Shown here one piece after another: positions 3,159 through 57,629 of a DNA stretch of 64,000 nt. How positions within the stretch are numbered: position 1 is the first letter of the stretch; each line of letters begins with the position of its first letter. The position numbers and the translations under genes were made by a program. The notes beneath the pieces are model-generated. The model was not told the origin of the DNA and searched no databases. It saw only the letters and a list, made by a program, of their open reading frames with translations. This DNA is from a virus, in the UHGV virus genome UHGV-0087418, one strand, 5' to 3'.

Positions 3159-3188
3159 ATTATACCACATCCTTGTGGTAAAGTAAAC
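3159..3188 (-). promoter_or_regulatory. T4-type early promoter (GTTTAC -35, GTATAAT -10 read on minus strand)
   Basis: Plus-strand 'gtaaac' at 3183-3188 and 'attata' at 3159-3164, about 18 nt apart; upstream of rIIA.1/rIIA. Confidence 0.5.
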
Positions 3189-5008
3189 TACTGGCTCATC
3201 CATTCTTTACGAAGGTCAGCATTATCTCCCATGAGCATTTCAAAAAGCTCTTTCCAGTTCTCAGGAAGTTTAACAACATCATATACTGGGTTTTGAATCA
3301 TCTCACGATATTCAGATTTTTCCAAAGAGCCAAGTCCCTTAATATAACGGATGCTATGTTTAGGTAGAGCATCTTTGGCACTCTCATATTCAGCGACTGT
3401 ATAAAACCATTCTTGTTTTTTACCGACCTGAGCGATGATTACAGGAGTTTTGACGAAACGAATTCTTCCTTGTTCAAACAGTTCTGGCCAATTACTAAAA
3501 AATCCGAGCAGAGAAGGATAAATGCTTCCTAGACCATCATGGTCGGCATCGGTCATAATTGCAATATTATGATAATTCAAGTTTTCGGCTTTTTCACCAA
3601 GAACTAATCCAGTGATTGCGCAAATATCAAATAGTTCTTTGTTTTTAAGCATATCAGCATATGACATACCCCAGCTGTTAAGAACTTTACCGCGTAATGG
3701 ATAACCACCATGAAGTTCTTTATCACGAACATCAATAAGATATCCGATAGCCGAATCACCCTCAGTCAAGAAAAGAGTAGTGTCAGCATCTTTACCACAA
3801 AGATTCGCTTTAATATGTTTATGAACCTTAGCTTTAGAAGCCTTTTTAGCTGCTTTAGTTTCTGCTGCCTTTTCTGCCGCCAATTTACGAGCCAAGGCAG
3901 CTTCAATAATTGGCATTAAAATTGCTTCATTATTTAAAATAGCGCGTGAAATCTTTTTAGCATCAAGCTGAATATGACTACGAATTTCACCAAATGGAGA
4001 AGTCAAACGCTCTTTAGTTTGAGAATCAAATCGCATGTTTTTCATATCACGAACAAACATAACGATAGTCAAACATTCTTTAACACGTGCTTTAGTTACA
4101 TCAATTTTGAACTTGCGTTTGATTTGTGGAATAAGGTCTTCACAAATATCATCCATAACGCAGTCAATGTGATGGCCACCATTCTTAGTATGAATGTTAT
4201 TGACGTATGTTAATTGACGAAAACCATCCGGTGAACGACCAACCGCAATAGAACAATTTTCTTGTTCTTGAACAATAGCATGCTCATCATATTGGCGTGC
4301 ATATTTCTTAAAATTGCCCTGAACCTTTTTACCATTAAAGGTAAATTGAATATCAGGATAAACTACTGCAAGTGTCTGGAGACGATCCAGTGTAATGTCA
4401 AGATAAACTTGAGATAGCTCATTAGTTTCAAATGACATAAAATCAGGAATGAAAGTAACACGTGTTCCTTTCCATTTTCCAGGAATATCTTCCCATGATT
4501 TATTTTCCATGCCATTTGAACAACGAACTACAATATTATTTTGACCGTCGCCAGTTTCACCGACAAACATCACAGAAAAAATGTTAGTTAAACTAGAACC
4601 AACACCGTTCATACCGCCAGTGACGCGTTCTTTGTCATCACCAAAGTTACCACCTGCTTTTGGAATAGTCCAGGCAGCAACAGGACCAGGAATTTCTTCA
4701 CCAGTAGGTGTTTTAACCATCGCTTGTGGAATACCACGACCGTTATCTTCAACTGTTACTTGATTGTTTTTAATAGTAACATTAATTTTATTTGCGAATT
4801 TAAACTTAGTACGAATACCTTCATCTACCGAGTTATCGATAATTTCATCAATAAGCTTAACAAGACCAGGTACATACTGAACACTTTCCCATTTACCAAA
4901 CAGAAAGCGCTCATGCATTTCATTAGCGGAAGAGCCAATGTACATGCCGCTACGCTTTTTGATATGTTCAATATCGCTCAGAATTTTAATTTCATTCTTA
5001 ATCATCAC
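3188..5008 (-). CDS. 39: DNA topoisomerase II large subunit, fused 39+60 type (GyrB-like ATPase)
   Basis: 606-aa ORF with GHKL ATPase and TOPRIM-like motifs; length matches the fused form found in T-even phages other than T4; no separate gene 60 or bypass segment seen. Confidence 0.9.
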   Translation of the reverse strand: MMIKNEIKILSDIEHIKKRSGMYIGSSANEMHERFLFGKWESVQYVPGLVKLIDEIIDNSVDEGIRTKFKFANKINVTIKNNQVTVEDNGRGIPQAMVKTPTGEEIPGPVAAWTIPKAGGNFGDDKERVTGGMNGVGSSLTNIFSVMFVGETGDGQNNIVVRCSNGMENKSWEDIPGKWKGTRVTFIPDFMSFETNELSQVYLDITLDRLQTLAVVYPDIQFTFNGKKVQGNFKKYARQYDEHAIVQEQENCSIAVGRSPDGFRQLTYVNNIHTKNGGHHIDCVMDDICEDLIPQIKRKFKIDVTKARVKECLTIVMFVRDMKNMRFDSQTKERLTSPFGEIRSHIQLDAKKISRAILNNEAILMPIIEAALARKLAAEKAAETKAAKKASKAKVHKHIKANLCGKDADTTLFLTEGDSAIGYLIDVRDKELHGGYPLRGKVLNSWGMSYADMLKNKELFDICAITGLVLGEKAENLNYHNIAIMTDADHDGLGSIYPSLLGFFSNWPELFEQGRIRFVKTPVIIAQVGKKQEWFYTVAEYESAKDALPKHSIRYIKGLGSLEKSEYREMIQNPVYDVVKLPENWKELFEMLMGDNADLRKEWMSQ

Positions 5009-6522: not shown

Positions 6523-6625
6523 TACAATTTCCTCGTTAATTGAACATTGGAGCGATGCGTTTCAGAAGAGTAGCAGCACCTTTGGCAAATTTTCCATTTT
6601 ATTCTCCAAGTTATTTTCTGTATCA

Positions 6626-6662
6626 GTAGTTGATATTGATATAGTACCATAATCAACTACTG
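6626..6662 (-). promoter_or_regulatory. Perfect 11-bp inverted repeat (cagtagttgat / atcaactactg) enclosing a -10-like element; promoter-plus-stem-loop cassette
   Basis: Inverted repeat read directly; the loop contains tatagtacc, which is related to the repeated promoter cassettes at 25562-25596 and 53960-53994. Confidence 0.4.
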
Positions 6663-6693
6663 ATGTATATAGTTTTATGAAAAAATTTAAACT

Positions 6694-7191
6694 TTATGCA
6701 TAGCGAGCTTTGCTATAGTGTTTAATCCAACTTTCAGGAATGACTTTGTATGTTCCTAAAAATACCGCATTGTACAACTTAACGCCATCTTCTACCCATT
6801 GATCGGTAATGTATGCACACATAGCGCGAGTACGATGTTTTTGAACAACCCCTTCTTCGTCTTCGGTAAATTCAAATTCATAAGGAGCGACGAACTTAAT
6901 AGCTTGACCGAGTTTCCACTTAAAGTCTACACCTACATGCGAAGTATCAATCGTTTCAATTCCTTTAGCAGGAACAGCTTTCAAAAACGCAGACTCAAGA
7001 AATTTCGCACGAACATAGCCAAACTGGGGTTTAGACTTTCCATCTTTAGGAATGATACGCACTTTTACTTCAGAATCTTCATCTTTAACACCGTGTTTAA
7101 GCTGAATGCTTACAATTTCAACCAATTTTCCTGCTGCTTTAGAACGGGATTTATCAGATACACGAGCAATTTCACCAATATTAATAATCAT
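6694..7191 (-). CDS. hypothetical protein, paralogue of the next gene (MotB-like position)
   Basis: 165 aa; shares the C-terminal motif C.Y[IV]TDQW[IV]EDGV.L.N.V with ORF 7268-7807. Confidence 0.45.
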   Translation of the reverse strand: MIINIGEIARVSDKSRSKAAGKLVEIVSIQLKHGVKDEDSEVKVRIIPKDGKSKPQFGYVRAKFLESAFLKAVPAKGIETIDTSHVGVDFKWKLGQAIKFVAPYEFEFTEDEEGVVQKHRTRAMCAYITDQWVEDGVKLYNAVFLGTYKVIPESWIKHYSKARYA

Positions 7192-15740: not shown

Positions 15741-15748
15741 TATTTATA
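15741..15748 (-). promoter_or_regulatory. T4 late promoter TATAAATA (gp55-dependent)
   Basis: Plus 'tatttata' at 15741-15748, about 30 nt upstream of the soc start. Confidence 0.6.
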
Positions 15749-15782
15749 ATAAATTCTCACAGCTTTTAAGCCGTCGTTTATA

Positions 15783-16301
15783 TTAATAACCTCGGTCTTG
15801 ACGAGCGAAGTTTTCAGCATTTTTCAGATAATAAAGTTTAAAGATTTCTTCAGCCGTAAGACCGAGACCTTGGAACATGTTCAGAACGAAATGAAGAATA
15901 TCAATCATTTCGAATTTAATTTCCAACTGGTCTTGTGGAGACAAATCAGTAATCAGAGTTTCACGTCGTTCACCATGTTGAGCTTTCCAAGGCTTCCATA
16001 CAGCAGATGCATCTTTTTCACCATTGCTCATACCACCAAGAGAAGTCAATAGTTCGCGGAATTCATCATCAATATAATCTTTCTGATTACGCAGCCAATC
16101 AACAACTTCACCCGCAGTAGCCAAATCATCAGGATGACGGTTATATTCAGGTTTATCTTTAGCTAAACGAACCTGCAGAGATTTCTGCATATCAAGCATA
16201 ACTTGCAGAGGGTCTTTTTCATCACCGAGAATATCCCAGTATTCATTTTGAGCTTTATCAGCGCCTTCAATCAGTTGTGAACATTCATTAAAGTATGCCA
16301 T
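15783..16301 (-). CDS. 56: dCTP pyrophosphatase (dCTPase/dUTPase)
   Basis: Starts at internal ATG 16299-16301 (MAYFNECSQLIEG...), about 172 aa; the ORF-track N-terminal extension is discarded; AAAGGA ribosome-binding site. Confidence 0.8.
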   Translation of the reverse strand: MAYFNECSQLIEGADKAQNEYWDILGDEKDPLQVMLDMQKSLQVRLAKDKPEYNRHPDDLATAGEVVDWLRNQKDYIDDEFRELLTSLGGMSNGEKDASAVWKPWKAQHGERRETLITDLSPQDQLEIKFEMIDILHFVLNMFQGLGLTAEEIFKLYYLKNAENFARQDRGY

Positions 16302-16335: not shown

Positions 16336-16359
16336 ATTATACAATAAATATATAAAGCA
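16336..16359 (-). promoter_or_regulatory. MotA-dependent middle-promoter-like element (TGCTTTA-N11-TATAAT)
   Basis: Plus 'taaagca' at 16353-16359 and 'attata' at 16336-16341; upstream of gene 56. Confidence 0.45.
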
Positions 16360-16568
16360 ATAAGGAGGATATATGGTACAAAAATTAATGGCACTTGTTA
16401 ATGCCATAAAAGGTAATAAAAACGTATAGCTTTTACTATTTCTGCTATGGTAGGAATTTTACTCTGGAATTTTGTTTTATCACCAATTGCTATTGCTCAT
16501 GGTGTTAATATTCCAGTAATTACTCTTGATACATTCGTAGATTTAGCATTTGCTTTAGTTGAGTTAAT

Positions 16569-25295: not shown

Positions 25296-25553
25296 TCAAA
25301 TACAAGTAGTAATTACTCCAGTAGTGCTTACACAGGTATTACCTAATTGAACACCAAGCGTTCCATTAGTATTCATATGAAGATTATCATCAATTTTTGT
25401 TGATACTTTACCATTCATGTGAATAACAGTATTAGATTCAATCACATTCTGAGTGTCATTTTCAATATCAATAAATGGAACAGCTGCTAATGCAACTAGA
25501 ACAACTGCTAATGCAACTAAACACGCTGCTAAACAACCATAAACAATTTTCAT
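25296..25553 (-). CDS. small membrane protein
   Basis: True start ATG 25551-25553 (MKIVYGCLAACLVALAVVLVALAAV...), 85 aa; the ORF-track extension translates the promoter/leader. Confidence 0.45.
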   Translation of the reverse strand: MKIVYGCLAACLVALAVVLVALAAVPFIDIENDTQNVIESNTVIHMNGKVSTKIDDNLHMNTNGTLGVQLGNTCVSTTGVITTCI

Positions 25554-25561
25554 TTTATTCT

Positions 25562-25617
25562 CCAAATCCGTATCAGTTGATAGTTGTATAGTACCACGGA
25601 AGAACAGGGATGTAAAT
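25562..25617 (-). promoter_or_regulatory. Early-promoter/leader cassette, copy A (repeated at 53960-54014)
   Basis: 35-nt string ccaaatccgtatcagttgatagttgtatagtacca identical to 53960-53994; -10-like atagta and -35-like gtaaat. Confidence 0.5.
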
Positions 25618-25705
25618 AGTTTTGTGAAAAAATTTTTAATGAATTTACAGGACCTAGAATCATCTATTTTTCTTAAGTATAGATTTATATTACTTGTATG
25701 AAAAA

Positions 25706-25721
25706 GGGACCCGGAGGTCCC
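25706..25721 (-). terminator. Intrinsic terminator hairpin
   Basis: gggacc-cgga-ggtccc followed by T5 on the minus strand, after gene 43. Confidence 0.6.
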
Positions 25722-25734
25722 TAGATTTATTCTA

Positions 25735-28431
25735 TCAGCCAAACAGGAAGTCTAACGAAGCTTTTTCTTCATAGTCCATACCTGCCGATTCACACATGCC
25801 CGCAAGCGGTTTAACAAACGATTTTTGGAACAAAGTTGAGTAGTCAATCCAAGACAGTACGTCAGAACGAATTTCTTTTGGAAGTTCTGTGCCTGATGGC
25901 CAAGCAATACACTTGTCACCAAATGGATTTCCTTCACGTAATGGAAGAACCATTACCTTATTTCCATCCAAAATTGGAGCTACACCTAAACCGCTAACAG
26001 CTCGACGATAAGTTAGCACACCACGAATATGGAACGGACATTTAAATCCTGGCCAACCTTTATCATCATATTTCGCTATATCGTTCGCAGTTTTTACTTC
26101 AGCAATAACTTTATAGTCAAGTTGACGATATTCTTTCTCAAAGTTCTTGTAGTATTCTTGGACAGACTCTTCGCCTTCTTGAAGAATACGACGAATACTT
26201 TCTTCGAGAGCTTCTTGTACTGCTTTTGGTGTTGAACTCTGCTGAGTTTCCATACCCATGATTTTTAAATGCGGTTCGGCAAATCGCTTATCTTCCATAT
26301 CATAAACGTTCAGAGCATAACGTTTTTTCGCTTTCCAAAATCCACCGACACCCTTTGAACCAAGTGGAGGGCAAGAAATAGCTTCACGGTCCATATGCAT
26401 CAGATGCTCGCGGTTATTCATATAGTCACATAACTCACGATATGCAACATCAATCATAGGTTCCATCTTTTTCTTACCGAACTGATTCATGAATTCAACT
26501 AAATCATTTTGTTCTTTAAAGCGGTCAAGACCTACTTTTTCAATAACTTTATCTACACAAACATATACCGAATCAGTATCACCTGCTGCGATGAAATCTT
26601 CACCATTAGTTCCACACACTTTATTTAGATATTCATTAATTTTGCGAGCAATCCACTGAATACCGACTTGACCGAAAATTGTGATAGCAGTAGCATTTCG
26701 CAAATCATAGTAACGGAAATGAATATTACCAAGAGCACCATAAAGACTGTTAATAAGAATTTTACGGTTCAGCTGATTTGTGTTAGCAAGTGTAGCAGCT
26801 TTTTCACATTCTTCAATCAGACTGTTAAGAACAGATTCGGTGTAATTCGATAATTCGTTTAAGAAATCATCACTGAACTTAACATATCGTTCAACTTCTG
26901 GTTTAGTTGAGCAAGACCCTGCACCTTTCATAATAATCTTTTTAATAGATTCGGCATTCATTTCTTCCGCGAACATTTTCTTTTTCCAATCTTTACGCTG
27001 GAAAAATACTTTAGCGATTTCCTTTGGAATGATACCTTCTTGGTGCTTATCATACATCCATCCATTCGGAGAGCAAGAATATTCATCACTTGGCTTAGGA
27101 GCTGTTCCTGCGATATATTCATGAATTGGATGAACTTTAAACTGCCCGCGAATAGTCTCAGGACTAATGTTAACCTGACGAATAATGCTAGGATACAGAG
27201 ACGTCAAGTCAAAACTCATAATGTATCGACGAGCAATCGGTTTAGGTTCAAACACAAATGCACCTGGAAAACTCTGTTTAACGTGCGAACCTTGTTGAGG
27301 AATAACCTTATGTTCACCTTTCAGTGAGTTAAAAATAATAGCGTCCCAAGTTTTAATAGGACTCATTACACCAGAAAAAGGCATTTTAGCGTAATAAGAC
27401 ATACTTAAAACTAGATCGATAAACCCACGAATTTTATCAATTGCTTGAACTGATTCTACGTCAATGATGTTATAACTAATGTATCGTTGATGATTAGTCT
27501 CACGAAGTTTATTAATAGGACCATCGTACGGCAATTTACCTTTTTTGGTTTCATGTTGAGCAACTGATTCCAACGAGAACGATGGCAAATTAGTAAATGC
27601 GAACTTCTTGTATAAATCTAAATAATCAAGAATAGATACGCCATCAATAGAATAAATTTCTTTGCTACCGTACATATTTTGAATTAGTTTAGATTTTACT
27701 CGACCGATTGGAGAGAAGCGTTTCATACTACGTTCACCGAGAACCATTTTAACGCGATTCATGATATACGGAACGTCAAATCCCTCAATATTCCAACCAG
27801 TAAAAATAGCAGGTCGTTTCTGTTCCCAGAGATTGATATATTCCATGAGCATATCACGCTCATTATCGAATGGCATATAAATTACTCGGTCAAGAATTTC
27901 TTGAGGAACTTCATCACCACCTTCACAGTCAAGCTTAGCAGCTAACTTTGCATCCCATTTTGATACTGAACCGTACATTGAATTCAACAAATCAAAGACG
28001 TAAAAACGGTCGTCAATTGAATCGTAATGAGTGATAGCATCAATTTCATATTCTGCTTTCATTGGGTCAGGAAATTTATCACCAGTAACCTCAATGTCGC
28101 AGTTAGCTACACGAACAAATTTTCGGTCATAAACAATTTCTGAACCATATGTATCACTGATATAAGCGAGTTTAAAATCGTTCATACCGAGAGCTTCGAG
28201 ACCGATGTCTTCCATTCGCTTCATCCAGTCTCGTGCATCTTTCATTGATGGAAATTTTTGAGGAGCGCAATTTTTACCATAAATGTCTTTGTATTTTGAC
28301 TCTTCCTTACAATGCCTAAACATAGTCGGAAGATATTCTACTTCACGAGTACGTTCCTTTCCGTTTTCATCAATATAACGTTCAACAATATTATTTCCGA
28401 CTGTTTCGATAGAGATATAAAATTCTTTCAT
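25735..28431 (-). CDS. 43: DNA polymerase (family B)
   Basis: 898 aa, same length as T4 gp43; exonuclease and polymerase motifs (DTDS, YGALG). Confidence 0.95.
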   Translation of the reverse strand: MKEFYISIETVGNNIVERYIDENGKERTREVEYLPTMFRHCKEESKYKDIYGKNCAPQKFPSMKDARDWMKRMEDIGLEALGMNDFKLAYISDTYGSEIVYDRKFVRVANCDIEVTGDKFPDPMKAEYEIDAITHYDSIDDRFYVFDLLNSMYGSVSKWDAKLAAKLDCEGGDEVPQEILDRVIYMPFDNERDMLMEYINLWEQKRPAIFTGWNIEGFDVPYIMNRVKMVLGERSMKRFSPIGRVKSKLIQNMYGSKEIYSIDGVSILDYLDLYKKFAFTNLPSFSLESVAQHETKKGKLPYDGPINKLRETNHQRYISYNIIDVESVQAIDKIRGFIDLVLSMSYYAKMPFSGVMSPIKTWDAIIFNSLKGEHKVIPQQGSHVKQSFPGAFVFEPKPIARRYIMSFDLTSLYPSIIRQVNISPETIRGQFKVHPIHEYIAGTAPKPSDEYSCSPNGWMYDKHQEGIIPKEIAKVFFQRKDWKKKMFAEEMNAESIKKIIMKGAGSCSTKPEVERYVKFSDDFLNELSNYTESVLNSLIEECEKAATLANTNQLNRKILINSLYGALGNIHFRYYDLRNATAITIFGQVGIQWIARKINEYLNKVCGTNGEDFIAAGDTDSVYVCVDKVIEKVGLDRFKEQNDLVEFMNQFGKKKMEPMIDVAYRELCDYMNNREHLMHMDREAISCPPLGSKGVGGFWKAKKRYALNVYDMEDKRFAEPHLKIMGMETQQSSTPKAVQEALEESIRRILQEGEESVQEYYKNFEKEYRQLDYKVIAEVKTANDIAKYDDKGWPGFKCPFHIRGVLTYRRAVSGLGVAPILDGNKVMVLPLREGNPFGDKCIAWPSGTELPKEIRSDVLSWIDYSTLFQKSFVKPLAGMCESAGMDYEEKASLDFLFG

Positions 28432-30404: not shown

Positions 30405-30436
30405 AATTTCCTCATTCAAGTTTTAGTGTAAATTTA

Positions 30437-30450
30437 AGGGCCGAAGCCCT
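30437..30450 (-). terminator. Stem-loop with UUCG tetraloop
   Basis: agggccgaagccct; identical 14-mer also at 36462 and 40101. Confidence 0.45.
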
Positions 30451-30453
30451 TTA

Positions 30454-31140
30454 TTAAAAATCGTGGGTAGAATCAGCTTCAAGAGCTACTACATAATTCG
30501 CGTGTTCACCTTCAAATTTAGCAGCACCTTGTTTACCTTTTGCCCAGAGCAGAAGTTTATAATTTCCTGGTTGCATTTTCATATTTGCCATATTGATAAT
30601 GAAATTAAATGTATTTTCACCATCATAATCACCAAGAGTCAAAGAATATTTAACGCGGGTCAAAGCAGAATCTTCCACTTTATTAAAACCGTTAATTACG
30701 ATTTTACCTTCTTTTACTGTGATAGCAATTGTATCAATCTGCAGACCACGAGATACACGCAACAGCTGTTGAAGGTCTTCAGCTTTAATTTCAGTAACAA
30801 CAGATGCTACCGGGAATGGAATTGGTTTATTAGGAGCAACTACTGTACTCGGATCGGCTGCTGGCCAAAAAATTGTTGAACGAGCATCAGCAATTTTAAT
30901 ATTTCCATCTTCTGACTGGGAAATTTCTGCATCGTCATTAACTAGGGACAGAATACCGAGAAAACCGTTCAAATCGTAAATTGCTACATCAAAATCAATA
31001 GTGTCAGAAATATTTGCTTCCGCATAAGTTGTACCATTAACTGCGCGAGTCATAATAAATTGACCAGATTTAAGCATAATACCAGAGTTAATAGTAGCGA
31101 AATTTTTAAGCAGAGCAGTAGTATCTTTAGACAGTTTCAT
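30454..31140 (-). CDS. 45: sliding clamp
   Basis: 228 aa, same length as T4 gp45. Confidence 0.85.
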   Translation of the reverse strand: MKLSKDTTALLKNFATINSGIMLKSGQFIMTRAVNGTTYAEANISDTIDFDVAIYDLNGFLGILSLVNDDAEISQSEDGNIKIADARSTIFWPAADPSTVVAPNKPIPFPVASVVTEIKAEDLQQLLRVSRGLQIDTIAITVKEGKIVINGFNKVEDSALTRVKYSLTLGDYDGENTFNFIINMANMKMQPGNYKLLLWAKGKQGAAKFEGEHANYVVALEADSTHDF

Positions 31141-36299: not shown

Positions 36300-36461
36300 A
36301 TATCAAGAACCGTCATTGAAATGCAAAATAAAATTATTGAAATAAATCCATCTGGAGTGCTAAAAAACCCAATCCAACATGCTCTAGTGAATAGATAAAA
36401 TGCGAGAAAAAGTATCACATATCCAAGAAATATCATTATATCAAACTCCGTATAAAGCTAA

Positions 36462-36475
36462 AGGGCCGAAGCCCT
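36462..36475 (-). terminator. Stem-loop with UUCG tetraloop
   Basis: agggccgaagccct downstream of alpha-gt. Confidence 0.45.
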
Positions 36476-37678
36476 TTATTTTGTAATAATGTCAAACTGT
36501 TCTTTAAAGCAGAAGCTTGAATCTTGATGCTGATACAAAAATTCATAAGCTTTTTCGCGTTCACGGTCATAAAGAGCTCGGTCAGATGACAGTTCTTTAA
36601 TACGTTCAAATGTTGATTCCATGTCATTTTCATCAAACCAAACGATACCGCTATCATGCGAAATTAACGGAGTATTATCAACACGGAATTTTAAATTTTC
36701 GCCAGTAGATTTCCAAAATACTGGAATTGTTCCACATGCACCAAGCTCGAGATGAGTATATTCTAAAGAACGTTGTAGATATTTTTTGTCCAACTTACTC
36801 AGTTGATAACCAAATCCGGATTTACTCATGCGTTCAAGCATTTCGCTATTTACATAACGGTCGAGAATTTGCGTTGGCAAATTAGGAGCAATTTTAATTT
36901 GGTCTACTTGATGAAGACGATAATACTCGTATGGAATTCCTTTTTCTTTAATAGGAATGAACGCTGGAGAACGTTCCAGACCTTCCATAATAGTACTTAG
37001 TCCAGCAGGTTTAAGATGTTTTTCGTGAAAATCAAACATCTGATAAAAACCTTTCCATGTAGTCGTACGACCAATCCAACGGTTGACATTCATATTAATT
37101 TCAGAAACATCTTTCCAGTAGGTTGATCGAACCTTCGCAATATCCATAGGAGGCTGAAAGTTGTATACAGTCGGTGCTTCTTCAATATCATCAAACAGAG
37201 AAACTGTTTCTGGATACCATTCTTTCATCAGAACTTTATTAAAATCACCATTATCAGAATGACTAAAAATAACATCAGCTCGACGAACAGTTTCTTCTAA
37301 TCCCAAATTTCGGCGCAAAGAAAGAGAAGAATGGTCATGTTGATAAACTACAACACGAACCGAAGGTTTAATGTTATCAATAATTTTTTTATAGTTATTA
37401 ATAGTGTCTTCTTCGACTGAAGTAGCAGGAACTGAATTGATAATTAGAATATCACAATCATTTACCAGCTTAAGTGTTTTATCGTATTCTTTTGCCAATA
37501 AAACCGGAATTGAAAATGATTTATAATCATGCGCGCAATTACGAGTAAATGATTTATCTTTAGCATAAACCAAAGTTACTTCATGACCATTTTTAATAAA
37601 CCAATCACGCTGCTCGAGAGAAAATTTAGTTACGCCGCAACCTTCAAGACCTCGAGCCATAAAAATGCATACTTTCAT
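36476..37678 (-). CDS. a-gt: DNA alpha-glucosyltransferase
   Basis: 400 aa, same length as T4 alpha-gt; position between 47 and 55. Confidence 0.75.
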   Translation of the reverse strand: MKVCIFMARGLEGCGVTKFSLEQRDWFIKNGHEVTLVYAKDKSFTRNCAHDYKSFSIPVLLAKEYDKTLKLVNDCDILIINSVPATSVEEDTINNYKKIIDNIKPSVRVVVYQHDHSSLSLRRNLGLEETVRRADVIFSHSDNGDFNKVLMKEWYPETVSLFDDIEEAPTVYNFQPPMDIAKVRSTYWKDVSEINMNVNRWIGRTTTWKGFYQMFDFHEKHLKPAGLSTIMEGLERSPAFIPIKEKGIPYEYYRLHQVDQIKIAPNLPTQILDRYVNSEMLERMSKSGFGYQLSKLDKKYLQRSLEYTHLELGACGTIPVFWKSTGENLKFRVDNTPLISHDSGIVWFDENDMESTFERIKELSSDRALYDREREKAYEFLYQHQDSSFCFKEQFDIITK

Positions 37679-37702
37679 TTAATATCCTCATTGTTTTGGT
37701 TT

Positions 37703-40061: not shown

Positions 40062-40100
40062 ACATTATCCTCAATTGCGTTAAAATTTTATTATCCAAAA

Positions 40101-40114
40101 AGGGCCGAAGCCCT
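40101..40114 (-). terminator. Stem-loop with UUCG tetraloop
   Basis: agggccgaagccct followed by a T-rich tract on the minus strand. Confidence 0.5.
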
Positions 40115-40314
40115 TAGCTAAACCGTTTGGCACCCTTCCAGCCTTCGTACATCATTGCAACTGACAATGACAAAGCTCCTTCACATGCTGCATACTTATT
40201 ATTCCAGAACCAATTTAGAAAAACTTCATCCTCAATACCATTGTGTTTCATGTTCTGGAAAAATTTGGCACGTTCTTCAGCAATTCGTTGTGATAATTTA
40301 GATTCAGGATTCAT
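40114..40314 (-). CDS. hypothetical protein
   Basis: 66-aa ORF. Confidence 0.35.
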   Translation of the reverse strand: MNPESKLSQRIAEERAKFFQNMKHNGIEDEVFLNWFWNNKYAACEGALSLSVAMMYEGWKGAKRFS

Positions 40315-42014: not shown

Positions 42015-42485
42015 TTAATCATGTTTCCACACCCCATCGGTATTTGACCAAAGTCGCTGATTATCTGATCCTCGCCACAACTTTTTGGTCGGAAGATTTT
42101 TCTCATACTTCCCATCAATAATAACATCAACATATTTAAGCATTTCTAGTTGTTTAATATCTTCAAACTTATATCCTGTCCACAACCAAATGCTTTTATT
42201 TGGATAAAGATTTTTTACTGTTTGAACAATGCAATGAATAACATCTCGGTTATCAGGATAGAGAGGGTCTCCTCCAGTTATAGTTAATCCTTCTATATAA
42301 TCATTATTCAAACATTCAATTAATTGTTCCAGCGTTTCACCAGTGAATGGAATACCATTTCTAGCGTTCCATGTTGATTTATTATAACACCCTTCGCATT
42401 TATGCAAACAACCTGTAACGAAAAGAACGACCCTGCATCCAGGGCCATTCACAAAATCACAAGGATAAAATCTATCATAATTCAT
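42015..42485 (-). CDS. nrdG: anaerobic ribonucleotide reductase activating protein (radical SAM)
   Basis: 156 aa; CxxxCxxC-type cluster motif GCLHKCEGC; adjacent to nrdD. Confidence 0.85.
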   Translation of the reverse strand: MNYDRFYPCDFVNGPGCRVVLFVTGCLHKCEGCYNKSTWNARNGIPFTGETLEQLIECLNNDYIEGLTITGGDPLYPDNRDVIHCIVQTVKNLYPNKSIWLWTGYKFEDIKQLEMLKYVDVIIDGKYEKNLPTKKLWRGSDNQRLWSNTDGVWKHD

Positions 42486-44299
42486 TGGTGTTTAACCCTA
42501 TGCATGATTTCTTTATTTTTTCCAAGATTAAATCCGCGTTCATTCGGATTTCCCAAATAGCCACAAGTTCTTCTTATTGTGTTCATCTTTTTAGGATCAG
42601 TTTCTCCACAAATAGAACAAACAAACCCGTTTTCAGTAGGAGTCATTTCATGGGTACTTCCGCATGTAAAACATTTATCTACTGGCATATTAACACCAAA
42701 ATAATCTAAATGTTGTGCAGCATAATCCCATACAGCCTCAAGACCTTTTAGGTTATTTTTCATATCAGGAAGTTCAACATAAGAAATGTGACCACCTGTC
42801 GCAATGAAATGATATGGGGCTTCGCGAGAAATCTTTTCAAACGGAGTAATATTTTCTTCTACTGAAACATGGAAACTATTAGTGTACCAGCCTTTATCAG
42901 TAACATCCTTTACACTTCCATATTTCTCAGTATCAAGTTTACAGAAGCGATAGCACAGGTTTTCAGCAGGAGTAGAATACAAGCTAAAAGCAAAACCGGT
43001 TCTTTCAGTCCACTGCTTAAGACGAGCATTCATTTTAGTTAAAATTTCCTGTCCAATATCACGACCGGCAAGAATATTCAATTCGTGAATACCAATGTAT
43101 CCTAGGGACACTGAACTTCTACCGTTTTTAAATAACTCAATTATGTCGTCATCAGGTTTAAGACGAACCCCGAATGCACCTTCTTGGTAAAGAATAGGAG
43201 CAACAGTCGCTTTAACTCCTTTTAAGGAACTAATTCTACACATCAAAGCTTCAAAACACAAATCCATTCGTTCATTGAACAATTCGGCAAATTTCTGTTC
43301 ATTGAACTGTGTTCCAATATAAGAATCTAATGCAATACGAGGAAGATTCAGTGTTACAACACCAAGATTATTACGTCCATCAAGAATTTCATTACCAGTC
43401 GAATCTTTCCATACGCTCAAGAAACTACGACATCCCATTGGAGAAACAGGAATAGATGAACCAGTGATAGCTTTATTGTTCTTAGCTGAAATAATATCAG
43501 GATACATTCTTTTGCTTGCACACTCTAAAGCAAGCTGCTTAATATCATAGTTCGGATCGTCTTTATAAAGATTAACGCCTTCTTCAACGAACATAACAAG
43601 CTTAGGGAAAATAGGAGTTATCCCATCGCGACCAAGACCTTTAATACGATTTTTCAGAATTGCTTTCTGAATCATTCGTTCAGTCCAGTCAGTTCCCGTA
43701 CCAAACGTAATTGTTACAAAAGGTGTTTGTCCGTTTGAACTAAAGAGAGTATTTACTTCATATTCATAAGCTTGGAATGCATCGTATACGTCTTTTTCTG
43801 TTTTAGATTGGGCATAATTCAATGCATCAGCGATTTGCCATTTTTCTGCATCCTCAATATGTTTTGCATAGGTGCGTTTAACATAAGGAGAAAGTACTTT
43901 ATCTACATTCGCAAAAGTCGTTCCGCCATATTGATGAGAAGCAACCTGTGCAGTAATTTGTGCCATAATTGCAGTAGCAACGCCGATTGATTTAGGAGTT
44001 TCAATCTGCGCATTACCGAGCTTAAATCCATTCTCAAGCATTCCTTTTAAATCTACTAAACAGCAATTAGTAAATGGAAGAGCAGGGGAATAATCAATAT
44101 CGTGGAAATGGATAATTCCGCTTTCATGCGCTTTCATAATAAAAGACGGGACCATATTTTTGGCAATGTGTTTAGACACAATACCAGCCATAAGGTCCCG
44201 TTGAGTTGGAAAAACACGAGAATCTTTATTAGCATTCTCGTTTAAAAGGTCTTTATTAGTTTTATGAATCAATCCTTCAATTTCTTTTTCAATCGTCAT
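42482..44299 (-). CDS. nrdD: anaerobic ribonucleoside-triphosphate reductase (class III, glycyl radical)
   Basis: 605 aa uninterrupted; C-terminal glycyl-radical motif RRTCGYLG and Zn-ribbon CxxC...CxxC; no intron or I-TevII-like ORF. Confidence 0.9.
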   Translation of the reverse strand: MTIEKEIEGLIHKTNKDLLNENANKDSRVFPTQRDLMAGIVSKHIAKNMVPSFIMKAHESGIIHFHDIDYSPALPFTNCCLVDLKGMLENGFKLGNAQIETPKSIGVATAIMAQITAQVASHQYGGTTFANVDKVLSPYVKRTYAKHIEDAEKWQIADALNYAQSKTEKDVYDAFQAYEYEVNTLFSSNGQTPFVTITFGTGTDWTERMIQKAILKNRIKGLGRDGITPIFPKLVMFVEEGVNLYKDDPNYDIKQLALECASKRMYPDIISAKNNKAITGSSIPVSPMGCRSFLSVWKDSTGNEILDGRNNLGVVTLNLPRIALDSYIGTQFNEQKFAELFNERMDLCFEALMCRISSLKGVKATVAPILYQEGAFGVRLKPDDDIIELFKNGRSSVSLGYIGIHELNILAGRDIGQEILTKMNARLKQWTERTGFAFSLYSTPAENLCYRFCKLDTEKYGSVKDVTDKGWYTNSFHVSVEENITPFEKISREAPYHFIATGGHISYVELPDMKNNLKGLEAVWDYAAQHLDYFGVNMPVDKCFTCGSTHEMTPTENGFVCSICGETDPKKMNTIRRTCGYLGNPNERGFNLGKNKEIMHRVKHQ

Positions 44300-49092: not shown

Positions 49093-49119
49093 TATACCAC
49101 ATCCTTGTGGCGAAGTAAA

Positions 49120-52039: not shown

Positions 52040-52099
52040 TTTCTGTTCCTCCGTAGTTGATAGGGTAATAATACCACAGAGGAACAGTCTTGTAAACCA

Positions 52100-52503: not shown

Positions 52504-53490
52504 TTATTTCAGAAGAGTAACCTCAGCGATTTCTTCCCAACCGTTTTTGTCGGTCATAATAAAGTCAGCAAGATAAAGAGCAGTACGCAGTGAAACATTG
52601 CGTAAACGGTTAACATTAACTTTCATCCATGATAATGCTTTATAAGTTTCTTCATCAGAAAGACCACGCTTTTGCATCATGTCAGTTGAAAGAATAACAT
52701 CTTCAACCCTGACCATAATTTCTTCATTAGTATGAACACCCAAATCCAAATAAACTGAGCGGGACACTAATGCTTGTAAATGTGGAGCAAGTTTAGTACC
52801 ACGGTCTAATTCGCGGTCAATGTCAACGTTTGTGATAAAAACAATCGTTCCTTTAAATTCAAACTCACGCTCAATGCCTTTTTCTTCTAAGTAAGAAGAC
52901 GCAGTGCTCCAGCAGACTTTACGGGTCTCTCCAGTGTCCAGAGCGGCTTTTAGAAGATTAAGAATATCCATATCAGAGAAAACATCCACATCATCAATCA
53001 AAAGGACAGAATTCTCTTCACGATTATTCCAAAGCTGCTCATAAAGACCAATACCAGAGATTTTACCATTAATGCTTTTATATTCAATGTATCCAATATC
53101 ATTTGCTTTATTCAAAGCTTTATCTAAAGAATACGTTTTACCAATACCTGCTGCACCAGAGATAATCAATGAACGAATATTTCCATTAATAATACCATTC
53201 GTCATCATTCCCATAACATTAAATCTTTTATTAATGCGGGTTTTCATATCTTCATACGATTCTTTAACTTCTTCAACTTTTACACCATCATATGAAATAT
53301 CTGATTTGTAAACCCAAACACCGCGACGTTTACCGTCAATTTCAACAAAAACTTTACCATCTCCTTGTGCATCTACCGGAGCATTATCTGGGAACCATTC
53401 GCCTAAGAGCTCAAAAGTTCCAGAGATTTCTTTACCGAAGTAGATACCCTTATTGATAGTTACAGTTTTCATTTTATTCTCCAATTTCAC
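52504..53490 (-). CDS. P-loop NTPase (AAA-like ATPase)
   Basis: 328 aa; Walker A ISGAAGIGKT, Walker B VLLIDDVD, sensor-like FITN; N-terminal domain of about 100 aa with unknown fold. Confidence 0.55.
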   Translation of the reverse strand: MKLENKMKTVTINKGIYFGKEISGTFELLGEWFPDNAPVDAQGDGKVFVEIDGKRRGVWVYKSDISYDGVKVEEVKESYEDMKTRINKRFNVMGMMTNGIINGNIRSLIISGAAGIGKTYSLDKALNKANDIGYIEYKSINGKISGIGLYEQLWNNREENSVLLIDDVDVFSDMDILNLLKAALDTGETRKVCWSTASSYLEEKGIEREFEFKGTIVFITNVDIDRELDRGTKLAPHLQALVSRSVYLDLGVHTNEEIMVRVEDVILSTDMMQKRGLSDEETYKALSWMKVNVNRLRNVSLRTALYLADFIMTDKNGWEEIAEVTLLK

Positions 53491-53541
53491 ATTTGTTTTG
53501 ATAGGGTAATAGTATCACACTACTACCCTACTGTAAACAAT

Positions 53542-53805
53542 TTATTTTAGTGTTTGCCAAATTTTTACTGCTTCGCGACGAGATACTTCTACAGCTCCAA
53601 GTTCTACGGCTTTTTGACGTCGGCGAGCATGTAAGTCATAATGTTTAATGCGTTTATCTTGAAACCAAGAACGTTTCATTCCTATTGCTTCTGCCATTTT
53701 ATGAAGCTCTTCAATATCTCCATCAGTGAACATATGACAATTTTTAGTTGGATGGCCGCGAAGTTTCCATCCATGATTCATTAAAACATCTACGTAAACT
53801 GTCAT
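53542..53805 (-). CDS. hypothetical protein (resembles the DUF4031 family from memory)
   Basis: 87 aa, MTVYVDVLMNHGWKLRGHPTKNCHMFTDGDIEELHKMAEAIGMKRSWFQ...; family assignment is recall only. Confidence 0.4.
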   Translation of the reverse strand: MTVYVDVLMNHGWKLRGHPTKNCHMFTDGDIEELHKMAEAIGMKRSWFQDKRIKHYDLHARRRQKAVELGAVEVSRREAVKIWQTLK

Positions 53806-53951
53806 TGATTCTGCTCCAAATATGTTTCTATAATTTTCTGAGCGAGATAAACTGCGTTATCTTCAGTTGCATCTTCTAAGAAATTTTCAAAATAAACTGA
53901 AATTTCTTCTGTGTCAATCAACTTTTTTACTTCAATTAACGTAGTTTTCAT
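53802..53951 (-). CDS. small hypothetical protein (49 aa)
   Basis: True start ATG 53949-53951 (MKTTLIEVKKLIDTEEISVYFENF...); the ORF-track extension translates the promoter/leader cassette. Confidence 0.4.
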   Translation of the reverse strand: MKTTLIEVKKLIDTEEISVYFENFLEDATEDNAVYLAQKIIETYLEQNQ

Positions 53952-53959
53952 TTTATTCC

Positions 53960-54014
53960 CCAAATCCGTATCAGTTGATAGTTGTATAGTACCATAAAGC
54001 TTTATGCTTGTAAA
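53960..54014 (-). promoter_or_regulatory. Early-promoter/leader cassette, copy B (GTTTAC-N17-TACTAT plus conserved leader)
   Basis: Plus 'gtaaac' at 54009-54014 and 'atagta' at 53986-53991; 35-nt leader identical to 25562-25596. Confidence 0.5.
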
Positions 54015-54037
54015 CCGTTTTGTGAAAAAATTTTGAA

Positions 54038-54057
54038 ATAAAAAAAAGGGAGCCCGA
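54038..54057 (-). terminator. Strong intrinsic terminator (UUCG tetraloop, U8 tail)
   Basis: gggagcc-cgaa-ggctccc followed by T8 on the minus strand; ends the nucleotidyltransferase operon. Confidence 0.7.
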
Positions 54058-54067
54058 AGGCTCCCTA

Positions 54068-55081
54068 TCATTTATAATAACTTCGATGGTTTTCAAGATA
54101 AACCCTCTCAAGGAAGTCATCCCAGAAACCCATGTCTACTTTTTGCTGCATACCGTTCTTAGAAGCTTCAATGGAAGCTGCTTCTACTTGATCGACTACA
54201 TCTTCCAAAAACTCTTGAACAGTTTTAAATGGATGTTTACCCAACTTCACGTCGAGAATAAATGGAGCATCTTGAAGTGGATAGACTAAGTCACCAGTTT
54301 TGTAAATTTCCAATAGTTGGAGTCCACCACGGCAAGCATGACTCAGAGCTTTCCAGTCAATGCCCTCATTAGCTTCGGCCTTACGAGCGCGTTCGCCGTA
54401 TTCAGCATCAAGTTTATTCAAAGATTGCTTAAGCTCGATAAGAGAAAGCGTTGTTTGATATTTACGACCCAACACGGTGTAGAACGTTTGTGGTCCTGTT
54501 TTCTCATGATTATGGAATACCCATTCACAGAATTCGTTCTCTGGAAGACGATGCTTAATATCTTCAACTTTAGTTCGACGCTGCTTAATGGAACCGTCTT
54601 CTTGGTAATCAACCCATTGCTCAGGGATTTGATTAACTACTTTCAATACATCACGTAATGCGGCCAAACGAGAACCCTTGACACCATATTTAGAAGCTTG
54701 CTTGCGAACATATCCTAAATAGGATTTCATGTTAGTCGTATAAAAACGAGAACGATTGTCTTGAATAAACTTCCATACATCAGGCAAATCAGATTTAACT
54801 ACCAGTTCAGGTGGAGTATGGAGCATATCCAATGCTACAGTTTCACCATCTGCTGCTAATTTAAAGAAATACTTAAGACTGTATAGTTCATGGTCAATAT
54901 CATCTTTAGTGTTTTTAAATGATGTGTTGTTAGTGTTTTTACTCATATGCTCTTTAACATTTCCGATAAGAATATCGCGAGCAGGAGGAACAAAGATTTC
55001 TTTAAAATCTACATCAGATTCTGGAGTAGAAGTTCCATAAAGATGACTACCAAAATAGCTTTTCATTACTGTTTTCATCAT
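54068..55081 (-). CDS. putative nucleotidyltransferase (Pol-beta superfamily minimal NTase motif)
   Basis: 337 aa; N-terminal GSHLYGTSTPESDVDF (GS...[DE]h[DE] signature) and downstream acidic DIDHE; remainder alpha-helical and unassigned. Confidence 0.5.
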   Translation of the reverse strand: MMKTVMKSYFGSHLYGTSTPESDVDFKEIFVPPARDILIGNVKEHMSKNTNNTSFKNTKDDIDHELYSLKYFFKLAADGETVALDMLHTPPELVVKSDLPDVWKFIQDNRSRFYTTNMKSYLGYVRKQASKYGVKGSRLAALRDVLKVVNQIPEQWVDYQEDGSIKQRRTKVEDIKHRLPENEFCEWVFHNHEKTGPQTFYTVLGRKYQTTLSLIELKQSLNKLDAEYGERARKAEANEGIDWKALSHACRGGLQLLEIYKTGDLVYPLQDAPFILDVKLGKHPFKTVQEFLEDVVDQVEAASIEASKNGMQQKVDMGFWDDFLERVYLENHRSYYK

Positions 55082-57600: not shown

Positions 57601-57629
57601 ATTGAAAGTAAACTGGTAAAATGAAAAAA

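What the first reader, a model, noticed from the sequence alone, without database searches (positions are those of the whole stretch)
25562..25617. Duplicated early-promoter/leader cassette at two distant loci that produces artefactual N-terminal extensions
A 35-nt string (ccaaatccgtatcagttgatagttgtatagtacca) is identical at 25562-25596 and 53960-53994. Each copy ends 9 nt before an ATG and is preceded by a GTTTAC/ATTTAC -35. Translating through it gives the shared pseudo-peptide TIQLSTDTDL.NKMK in two unrelated ORF-track entries. A third, related copy at 6626-6662 sits inside a perfect 11-bp inverted repeat. This fits the promoter-early stem-loop type of mobile regulatory cassette described for T4-type genomes, which can mediate modular gene shuffling.
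Basis: partly seen in the sequence, partly recalled or inferred. Interest (0 to 1): 0.45.

Follow-up and report, generated by a model that had tools for sequence, protein, structure and literature searches.

The report
Repeated T4 early promoter–leader cassette
The repeat is real, but it is an ordinary, already described feature of T4-like phages: a strong early promoter with its short mRNA leader, copied at several places in the genome, each next to small genes that come and go between related phages.

Summary
The 35-nt repeat (25562-25596 and 53960-53994) is confirmed and is the longest exact repeat in the window. The window is a Tequatrovirus (T4-like phage), and the element reads on the minus strand. 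Each copy is a T4-type early promoter: an AT-rich UP element, a (G/A)TTTAC -35, a TGG-TACTAT extended -10, an unstructured leader of about 28 nt, a Shine-Dalgarno site and ATGAAA. The 35-mer covers only the extended -10 plus the leader. The 18-nt promoter spacers of the two copies are unrelated.

The copies are orthologues of the T4 promoters upstream of imm.1 and nrdC.10. A third, more divergent copy lies in the motB-cef spacer, and a fourth locus (denB/ndd) lies outside the window.

The N-terminal extensions are mechanical ORF artefacts. All copies sit at ORF presence/absence polymorphisms, with one breakpoint at or just after the cassette's start codon (in the SD-ATG repeat at copy B). Across genomes the same leader is fused to at least seven unrelated ORFs.

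This matches the promoter-early stem-loop (PeSL) elements published for RB49/phi1 (2010) and T4/PST (2014). Early promoters as a class are not enriched at window-versus-T4 breakpoints, so a causal role in shuffling remains an inference.

The parts
25705..25722 (-). Copy A: terminator hairpin at the end of gene 43 (GGGACCTCCGGGTCCC followed by a T-run), about 88 nt upstream of the -35
   Evidence: Terminator scan. RNA fold -13.9 kcal/mol, z = -3.3. The hairpin (one stem position differs) and T-run are also present in T4.
25618..25640 (-). Copy A: AT-rich UP-element region (AAAAATTTTTTCACAAAACT)
   Evidence: 84% A+T in the 25 nt upstream of the -35. An 18-nt exact match to copy B, GTTTTGTGAAAAAATTTT. 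77% identity to copy B against a mean of 38% for early-promoter pairs.
25588..25617 (-). Copy A core promoter: -35 ATTTAC (25617-25612), an 18-nt spacer ending in TGG, -10 TACTAT (25593-25588)
   Evidence: TTTACA-17-TACTAT with TG. A relative annotates a T4-early-type promoter at this position. Orthologous to the T4 sequence upstream of imm.1.
25554..25587 (-). Copy A leader: predicted TSS about 25581 (inferred from -10 spacing), unstructured 5' UTR, SD GGAG at 25563-25560
   Evidence: Sequence. RNA fold -0.9 kcal/mol, z = 0.2. 97.5% identical to copy B over the 40 nt after the -10, against a mean of 34% (sd 11%) for other early-promoter pairs.
25296..25553 (-). orf85: small predicted membrane/secreted ORF driven by copy A. 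Absent from T4. The 268-bp indel is flanked by ATGAAAATTG (25553-25544 and 25285-25276)
   Evidence: Present in 326 phage records against about 544-574 that hold the locus. No Pfam family.
54039..54066 (-). Copy B: intrinsic terminator (AGGGAGCCTTCGGGCTCCCT plus T8) directly upstream of the UP element
   Evidence: Terminator scan. RNA fold -16.2 kcal/mol, z = -3.5. The stem-loop is identical in T4; its T-run is two T shorter.
53986..54038 (-). Copy B promoter: UP element, -35 GTTTAC (54015-54010), spacer aagcataaagctttatgg, -10 TACTAT (53991-53986)
   Evidence: Identical to the T4 promoter upstream of nrdC.10.
53952..53985 (-). Copy B leader: predicted TSS about 53979. The SD position reads GGGG (53961-53958) where copy A and T4 have GGAG
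   Evidence: RNA fold unstructured.
53464..53951 (-). Variable module downstream of copy B: orf49 (53802-53951), orf87/DUF4031 (53542-53805), and a second early promoter (-35 at 53538-53533, -10 at 53514-53509) with its leader up to nrdC.10 (ATG at 53472). The 479-bp indel relative to T4 is flanked by the 21-nt repeat TTGG(A/G)GAATAAAATGAAAACT (53963-53943 and 53484-53464)
   Evidence: About 163 records hold the module at 80% coverage or more. DUF4031, E = 1.6e-21.
6598..6695 (-). Copy C (motB-cef spacer): UP element, weak -35 ATATAC (6670-6665), -10 TACTAT (6646-6641) at the apex of a stem-loop (arms 6622-6641 / 6645-6664), leader with SD GGAG (6607-6604)
   Evidence: RNA fold -20.2 kcal/mol, z = -5.6. 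Near-identical in T4.
6562..6597 (-). Copy C: 11-codon remnant of an 89-aa ORF. There is a 208-bp internal deletion relative to phage OE5505, and the same deletion is present in T4
   Evidence: Alignment A3. Annotation of OE5505. About ten of the 40 records listed match as two pieces spanning roughly 770-910 bp of the record for the 701-nt query.

Best explanation
The repeat is the core of a T4-type early (host sigma-70) promoter plus its 5' leader. It reads on the minus strand.

**Anatomy (shown by sequence).** Each copy has an AT-rich UP element (AAATTTTTTCACAAAAC), a -35 (G/A)TTTAC, a 17/18-nt spacer, an extended -10 TGG-TACTAT, and a leader of about 28 nt. That leader is unstructured and carries a Shine-Dalgarno GGAG 6 nt before ATGAAA.

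**Identity of the copies (shown by comparison).** Copy A (25.6 kb) is the orthologue of the T4 promoter in front of imm.1. Copy B (54.0 kb) is the orthologue of the T4 promoter in front of nrdC.10. Copy C (6.6 kb) is the motB-cef spacer element. A fourth paralogue lies in the denB/ndd region, outside the window.

**Function (inferred from established T4 biology).** Immediately after infection, unmodified or Alt-modified host RNA polymerase fires from these promoters and expresses the small ORFs downstream. The terminator hairpins upstream (B, A) or around the -10 (C) insulate each unit from read-through.

**Evolution (inferred from comparative pattern).**
- The copies are paralogues with mosaic similarity. 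The UP element and the -10/leader are shared, while the spacers are unrelated.
- Their conserved body, and especially their 3' end (GGAGAATAAA-ATGAAAA), supplies short homology.
- At that homology, ORF modules are inserted, deleted or swapped.

This is the PeSL (promoter-early stem-loop) cassette model already published for T4-type phages.

**The shared peptide.** TIQLSTDTDL.NKMK is simply the in-frame translation of the leader. It is not protein.
For: **Observation.**

**Genome identity.** The window is 96-99% identical to many Tequatrovirus genomes.

**Promoter anatomy.**
-.
- The window holds 19 minus-strand sites matching the T4 early promoter consensus.
- Promoters are annotated in relatives and in the T4 ndd record X75802.

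**T4 orthology.**

**Common descent rather than consensus.**
- The 40 nt after the -10 are 97.5% identical between A and B, against a mean of 34% (sd 11%, next best 60%) among 19 early promoters.
- The spacer is 39%, equal to the mean.

**Leader structure.** The leader is unstructured and the hairpins are significant. There is no Rfam family match.

**Variable genes at every copy.**
- orf85.
- The orf49-orf87-promoter module, flanked by a 21-nt repeat.
- A deletion remnant at C.
- An 8-codon remnant at the T4 ndd locus, against an 87-aa ORF elsewhere.

**One leader, many ORFs.**
- The same -10 plus leader is fused to at least 7 mutually unrelated ORFs.
- Near-exact copies of the core: 514 places in 343 phage records, up to 3 per genome.

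**Crossover inside the leader.** Phage ASO78A joins the B promoter to orf49 through a different leader, with the junction after CTATCAA.

**Cross-genus examples.**
- STML-198 (Gelderlandvirus) carries the cassette plus a different ORF at the nrdC.10 site, apparently acquired together with a neighbouring gene that it shares at 87% with Tequatrovirus W143.
- AKM_NP4 has two near-identical promoter-leader cassettes flanking a 78-aa ORF at the same site.

**Published definition.** The PeSL description and model match.
Against: - No transcript 5' ends or promoter activity were measured here.
- Only copy B has the canonical 'stem-loop just upstream' layout of T4/PST PeSLs. Copy C has a poor -35 (ATATAC).
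- The causal claim is weak. Only 2 of 21 window-vs-T4 structural junctions touch an early-promoter cassette, against 3.0 expected under a circular-shift null. Seven of the other junctions coincide with homing-endonuclease genes.
- Junction homologies are short: 10 nt at A, 21 nt at B, about 4-5 nt at C. Generic microhomology-mediated deletion at gene starts, filtered by selection, would give the same picture.
- With more than 500 genomes compared, most spacers in plastic regions will show some polymorphism.
Confidence: 0.82

Rival explanations
1. Passive paralogy. The copies are old duplicates kept alike by purifying selection on a good early promoter and translation-initiation region. The neighbouring ORF gains and losses come from ordinary microhomology-mediated illegitimate recombination at gene boundaries. 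The cassette plays no special role.
For: - Early-promoter cassettes are not enriched at window-vs-T4 junctions: 2 of 21 against 3.0 expected.
- The deletion at copy C uses only about 4-5 nt of microhomology, and copy A's indel uses only 10 nt.
- Other ORF indels in the window have 2-8 nt junction overlaps far from any early promoter.
- The leader is unstructured with an ideal SD spacing, which is plausibly selectable in itself.
Against: - The promoter spacers of A and B are unrelated while both flanks are near-identical. That mosaic is better explained by exchange than by uniform selection.
- The other 17 early promoters work with quite different leaders, so this particular leader is not required.
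- The same leader is joined to at least 7 unrelated ORFs.
- Phage ASO78A shows a crossover inside the leader.
- Tandem duplicated cassettes flank an inserted ORF in AKM_NP4.
Confidence: 0.3
2. Ongoing gene conversion (concerted evolution) between the paralogous cassettes explains the exact 35-nt identity in this particular genome. In T4 the same two copies differ by a 3-nt ACT indel and one substitution.
For: - T4 copy A has ...CAACTACTGATACGG...GAATGAAATG, whereas T4 copy B and both window copies lack the ACT.
- The ACT state is not locus-specific across genomes: the A locus carries ACT in T4 and in L008/L009 but not in the window, L001, L012 or L029, and the ndd-region (D) locus carries it in T4 but not in L010/L011/L013.
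- W143 has ACT at the B locus.
Against: - ACT/ACTACT is a tandem trinucleotide, so recurrent slippage can produce the same homoplasy.
- The sample of sequenced alleles examined here is small.
- This is compatible with the main explanation rather than opposed to it.
Confidence: 0.35
3. The leader is itself a functional element with a specific partner, either as RNA or as DNA. Candidates are a translational enhancer, a regulatory-protein or nuclease site, or a site-specific recombination target. It would be conserved for that reason.
For: In Gelderlandvirus STML-198 the stretch from TACTAT to GGATT is 33/33 identical, and 41/42 identical to T4 copy B. The adjacent nrdC.10 coding sequence is only 74% identical there.
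Against: - The STML-198 copy sits in a segment absent from the other Gelderlandvirus examined, AKM_NP4; only 4 records cover 80% or more of that locus. Its neighbouring gene is shared at 87% with a Tequatrovirus. Recent horizontal transfer therefore explains the identity.
- There is no RNA structure and no Rfam match.
- The GGAG is mutated to GGGG in window copy B without loss of the downstream ORF.
Confidence: 0.08

Closest known systems
Bacteriophage T4 early promoters (Pe), as reviewed by Hinton 2010 (PMC2988021) and Nolan et al. 2006 (PMC1524935)
   Same: - 'UP/-35/TGn/-10' architecture, with GTTTAC at -35 and an A/T-rich UP region.
- Minus-strand orientation in the early region.
- The copies are positional orthologues of the T4 sequences upstream of imm.1, nrdC.10 and cef.
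- The paralogue at the ndd locus is annotated as a promoter in T4 record X75802.
   Different: Nothing essential differs. Copy A has ATTTAC instead of GTTTAC. Copy C has ATATAC and a hairpin over the -10. The near-identity of the transcribed leader between copies goes beyond the promoter consensus.
PeSL (promoter-early stem-loop) cassettes: Arbiol et al. 2010 (PMC2839356, RB49/phi1); Comeau, Arbiol and Krisch 2014 (PMC4122927, T4/PST and KVP40/nt-1)
   Same: - A conserved unit of about 100 bp: AT-rich region, -35/-10 (T4/PST consensus TTTACW-N17-TAYWAT), stem-loop, SD, start codon.
- It lies next to variable small ORFs and next to the plastic gene 43 locus.
- Indels are bounded by the cassette.
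- The denB/ndd-region paralogue lies in the same region as the ndd.4/.5 exchange shown in Fig. 6A of the 2014 paper.
   Different: - Stem-loop placement varies here: directly upstream at B, about 88 nt upstream at A, and over the -10 at C.
- The homology actually flanking the indels here is only the 10-21 nt SD-ATG end, not the AT-rich region proposed in the RB49 example.
- Mini-circles were not, and could not be, tested.
Integron gene cassettes (attC/attI with a common promoter)
   Same: Works alike only in outline: small promoterless ORFs are gained and lost at a site that supplies the expression signals.
   Different: There is no integrase and no attC-like structured site. Junctions are at short homologies. 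Each cassette here carries its own promoter. This is an analogy only, not membership.

Membership tests
T4 early promoter (Pe) | -35 GTTTAC-type hexamer and -10 TAnnnT, separated by 17 nt (sigma-70 numbering), with an extended -10 TGn | tested here: met
   A: TTTACA-17-TACTAT with TG. B: the same. C has -10 TACTAT and TGG, but its -35 is only ATATAC.
T4 early promoter (Pe) | A/T-rich UP element upstream of the -35 | tested here: met
   84%, 80% and 88% A+T in the 25 nt upstream of the -35 for A, B and C. All share the AAATTTTTTCA(C/T)AAAAC motif.
T4 early promoter (Pe) | Active immediately after infection with unmodified host RNA polymerase (primary 5' end; chloramphenicol-independent) | not testable with these tools
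   A T4 dRNA-seq data set exists (GSE255091, cited in bioRxiv 10.1101/2024.04.04.588121), but its TSS table is not held.
PeSL cassette | Composite unit of about 100 bp ending in a Shine-Dalgarno sequence and the start codon of the downstream ORF | tested here: met
   GGAG (GGGG in B), then AATAAA, then ATG in all three copies.
PeSL cassette | Stable stem-loop within or just upstream of the promoter, able to terminate upstream transcription | tested here: inconclusive
   B: met (hairpin plus T8 abutting the UP element, -16.2 kcal/mol). C: met in the RB49 sense (stem-loop over the -10, -20.2 kcal/mol, no U-tract). A: the hairpin is the gene 43 terminator, about 88 nt upstream of the -35, so not contiguous. 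Terminator activity was not measured.
PeSL cassette | Lies in hyperplastic regions or next to unusually plastic genes, typically upstream of small ORFs of unknown function | tested here: met
   B lies in the nrdC.x region. C lies in the motB-cef region. A lies immediately downstream of gene 43, a locus named as PeSL-flanked. The downstream ORFs orf85 and orf49 have no Pfam family.
PeSL cassette | Adjacent ORFs differ between closely related phages, with breakpoints in or at the cassette | tested here: met
   A, B, C and the ndd locus. Caveat: there is no general enrichment of early promoters at window-vs-T4 junctions.
PeSL cassette | Recombination between cassettes yields excised mini-circles or recombinants | not testable with these tools
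   Needs outward-facing PCR or long-read data from infected cells or virions.

The most novel reading that the evidence does not exclude
The 3' end of this particular leader family (…GGATTTGGAGAATAAA-ATGAAA) may be a preferred, quasi-site-specific junction for ORF capture. It would then work as a dedicated 'expression slot' that moves small genes between loci and even between genera (Tequatrovirus to Gelderlandvirus), rather than as one more stretch of homology.
Probability: 0.1. Interest if true: 0.45.

Novelty: already known. Interest (0 to 1): 0.15.

Why it matters
There are three practical points.
1. Stop-to-stop ORF calls through these leaders produce false N-terminal extensions (GTIQLSTDTDL.NKMK). 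Such calls can create spurious 'homology' between unrelated small proteins.
2. The cassette is a convenient marker of variable-gene slots in Tequatrovirus genomes. These are the imm.1, nrdC.10, motB-cef and denB/ndd loci, where host-adaptation or anti-defence ORFs are likely to be found.
3. The data add concrete examples to the published PeSL shuffling model: at least 7 unrelated ORFs behind one leader, a crossover inside the leader, and one probable cross-genus transfer. They also give a caution, because early promoters in general are not enriched at breakpoints in this window.

None of this changes current understanding.

Tried and rejected
- **Known RNA family.** An Rfam gathering-threshold scan of the whole window gave no hits.
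- **Structured leader or riboregulator.** The A and B leaders fold no better than shuffles (-0.9 kcal/mol, z about 0.2-0.5). The palindromic B spacer is also not significant.
- **General association of early promoters with indels.** This was tested against T4 1-70 kb. Two of 21 junctions touch a cassette, against a null mean of 3.0 (P(>=2) = 0.88), so it was rejected as a general statement.
- **Deep cross-genus conservation of the leader as evidence of function.** This was weakened when the STML-198 copy turned out to lie in a segment absent from the Gelderlandvirus AKM_NP4 and shared with Tequatrovirus W143.
- **Experimental TSS support.** Miller et al. 2003 is not held. AF158101 and NC_000866 carry no promoter features here. 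The dRNA-seq supplement does not contain the TSS table.
- **IMG/VR and metagenome pattern scans.** They returned few loci. Two of them (L021, L023) are unrelated coding-sequence matches.
- **Protein searches, structure prediction and covariance models.** These were not used, because the element is non-coding and unstructured.

Full report
**Observation**

The 35-mer is present exactly twice, at 25562-25596 and 53960-53994. No shuffle of the window gave even a 3-mismatch match. A self-comparison at word size 14 shows it is the longest exact direct repeat in the window; the next is 20 nt.

The similarity is wider than reported and is mosaic:
- 50 nt with one mismatch (25547-25596 vs 53945-53994);
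- then 18 nt with no more similarity than random promoter pairs;
- then 26 nt at 92% (25611-25636 vs 54009-54034).

**Where we are**

The window is a Tequatrovirus, 96-99% identical to many Escherichia, Shigella and Yersinia T4-like phages. Genes here run on the minus strand.

Read on that strand, each copy has these parts:

| Part | Sequence |
|---|---|
| UP element | AAATTTTTTCACAAAAC |
| -35 | (A/G)TTTAC |
| Spacer | 18 nt, ending in TGG |
| -10 | TACTAT |
| Leader | ACAACTATCAACTGATACGGATTTGG(A/G)GAATAAA |
| Start | ATGAAAA |

- The consensus scan recovers TTTACA-17-TACTAT with an extended -10 TG at both loci.
- A simple pattern scan finds 19 such T4-type early promoters on the minus strand of the window.
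- Close relatives annotate T4-early-type promoters at the copy-A position and upstream of nrdC.10.
- The 35-mer itself is the TGG, the -10, the start region and the 5' UTR down to the first GG of the Shine-Dalgarno site.
- With the usual spacing, transcription would start near 25581 and 53979, giving a leader of about 28 nt. This is inferred, not measured.

**Orthology with T4**

- T4 has copy A in front of imm.1.
- T4 has copy B, including the same terminator hairpin and the same spacer, in front of nrdC.10.
- T4 has copy C in the motB-cef spacer.
- A fourth paralogue lies in the denB/ndd region, outside the window. It is annotated as a promoter with -35 and -10 signals in the 1994 T4 record X75802.
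- Across the phage database the 46-nt core (-10 to ATG) occurs near-exactly at 514 places in 343 records. That is up to three per genome, at about 25 kb, 52-54 kb and 164-166 kb.

**Is the similarity just promoter consensus?**

No. Among the 19 early promoters, the 40 nt downstream of the -10 average 34% pairwise identity (sd 11%; best other pair 60%). A versus B is 97.5%. The UP region is 77% against a mean of 38%. The spacer is 39%, exactly the mean.

So A and B share ancestry in two segments but not in the one between them. The A spacer resembles that of another early promoter, at 52097.

**Structure**

- The leader RNA is unstructured (-0.9 kcal/mol, z about 0).
- The hairpins are real: -16.2 kcal/mol (B terminator), -13.9 (gene 43 terminator upstream of A) and -20.2 (copy C, enclosing the -10).
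- There is no Rfam match anywhere in the window.

**Artefactual extensions**

The leader is open in the frame of the ATG. The mechanical ORFs 25296..25742 and 53802..54071 therefore both contain GTIQLSTDTDL(E/G)NKMK. Annotated relatives start these genes at the MK, giving 85 aa and 49 aa.

**Are the neighbouring genes variable?**

Yes, at every copy.

*Copy A.*
- T4 goes straight from the cassette into imm.1.
- The window has an extra 85-aa ORF. The 268-bp indel is flanked by ATGAAAATTG.
- The ORF is found in 326 records, against about 544-574 that hold the locus.

*Copy B.*
- T4 goes straight into nrdC.10.
- The window has orf49, a DUF4031 gene and a second early promoter.
- This is a 479-bp module flanked by the 21-nt repeat TTGG(A/G)GAATAAAATGAAAACT.
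- About 163 records carry it at 80% coverage or more.

*Copy C.*
- Phage OE5505 has an 89-aa ORF behind the cassette.
- The window and T4 carry a 208-bp internal deletion that leaves an 11-codon remnant.

*ndd locus.*
- T4 has an 8-codon remnant.
- Other phages have an 87-aa or a 68-aa ORF there.

*Taken together.*
- The same -10 plus leader is joined to at least seven ORFs with no detectable similarity to each other.
- In phage ASO78A the B promoter is joined to orf49 through a different leader, with the junction after CTATCAA. Crossovers therefore also occur inside the leader.
- In Gelderlandvirus AKM_NP4, two near-identical promoter-leader cassettes flank a 78-aa ORF at the nrdC.10 site.
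- In Gelderlandvirus STML-198 the Tequatrovirus-type leader (41/42 identical to T4 copy B) precedes yet another ORF at that site. Its neighbouring gene is shared at 87% with Tequatrovirus W143, which points to horizontal transfer.

**Caution on causality**

I aligned the window to T4 1-70 kb and listed all 21 structural junctions.
- Only two touch an early-promoter cassette, and they are exactly copies A and B. A circular-shift null gives 3.0 on average, so early promoters as a class are not enriched at breakpoints here.
- Seven junctions coincide with homing-endonuclease genes (mobA, segF, segA, mobB, mobC, the I-TevII intron, mobD).
- Other junctions are ORF indels with 2-8 nt junction overlaps, far from promoters.
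- The homologies that actually bound the indels at A, B and C are short (10, 21 and about 4-5 nt). They lie at the SD-ATG end, where selection would in any case retain only in-register events.

**Comparison with what is known**

- T4 early promoters with UP/-35/TGn/-10 and 'additional regions of consensus' are textbook material.
- PeSLs were defined in RB49/phi1. They comprise an AT-rich region, a sigma-70-like promoter, a stem-loop in one of five positions (including over the -10), an SD and a start codon. They are conserved over about 100 bp, lie next to ORFans and next to gene 43, and mediate excision and insertion.
- PeSLs were then extended to T4/PST, with the consensus TTTACW-N17-TAYWAT and stem-loops just upstream. 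An example was given in the ndd region.
- The present elements meet those features. The exceptions are that copy A's hairpin is not contiguous, copy C has a weak -35, and function cannot be tested here.

**Verdict**

The feature is already known. Interest is low. Its value is mainly as an annotation caveat and as a few clean additional examples, plus one negative enrichment test, for the published model.

Noticed in passing
window 25484-25519: orf85 contains a 21-nt tandem duplication. The 15-mer CTGCTAATGCAACTA occurs at 25484 and 25505, giving LVALAVV-LVALAAV in its hydrophobic segment. Alleles in other phages are 78 aa long and lack the 7-aa repeat (L008/L009).
   Followed up: partly
window 53958-53961: The only difference between copies A and B inside the 50-nt block changes the Shine-Dalgarno GGAG to GGGG in front of orf49. 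From general T4 knowledge GGAG is also the RegB cleavage motif, so this mRNA may escape RegB. T4 and most relatives have GGAG at this position.
   Followed up: no
window 3159-3178 and 49091-49110: This is a second pair of early promoters (-35 at 3188 and 49120). They share an exact 20-mer, ATTATACCACATCCTTGTGG, covering the -10 and most of the spacer (89% spacer identity). Segment sharing between early promoters is therefore not unique to the reported pair.
   Followed up: partly
window 57613 and 15422 (-35 positions); 52097: - The promoters at 57613 and 15422 share their upstream terminator and UP region (CCTTCGGGAG..TTTTTTCATTTTACC, 67% identity).
- The promoter at 52097 shares its spacer and leader with the second promoter of the T4 ndd record (X75802 1296-1355).
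   Followed up: no
window 30436-30455, 36460-36480, 40099-40115: Three copies of the same small GC-rich palindrome, AAGGGCCGAAGCCCTT(TATT), are present. It looks like a terminator hairpin and is repeated at distant loci.
   Followed up: no
window 16341-16362, 3523-3588, 15748-15820, 37669-37694, 42465-42485, 43761-43764: Relative to T4 the window lacks:
- about 900 bp spanning the dam methylase gene;
- about 1.1 kb spanning part of gene 60, 60.1 and mobA;
- segF, mobB and mobC;
- the nrdD intron with I-TevII.

segA and beta-gt are replaced by a T2/T6-type beta-glucosyl-HMC-alpha-glucosyltransferase region.
   Followed up: no
L024-L026 (metagenome contig OBRH01000009.1, 168455 bp): This contig carries cassette copies A and B identical to the window, including the GGGG variant. 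Its orf49 differs from the window's at one residue. It also has a third copy, in the denB/ndd-type context, that drives a 68-aa ORF (MFTTAELK...) not seen at that locus in the other genomes examined.
   Followed up: partly
L032 370-790 (Salmonella phage AKM_NP4) and L019 880-1215 (STML-198): The site upstream of nrdC.10 is an ORF-insertion hot spot in another genus too.
- AKM_NP4 has two near-identical promoter-leader cassettes flanking a 78-aa ORF.
- STML-198 has a Tequatrovirus-type leader plus a 59-aa ORF, with a degenerate -35.

   Followed up: partly
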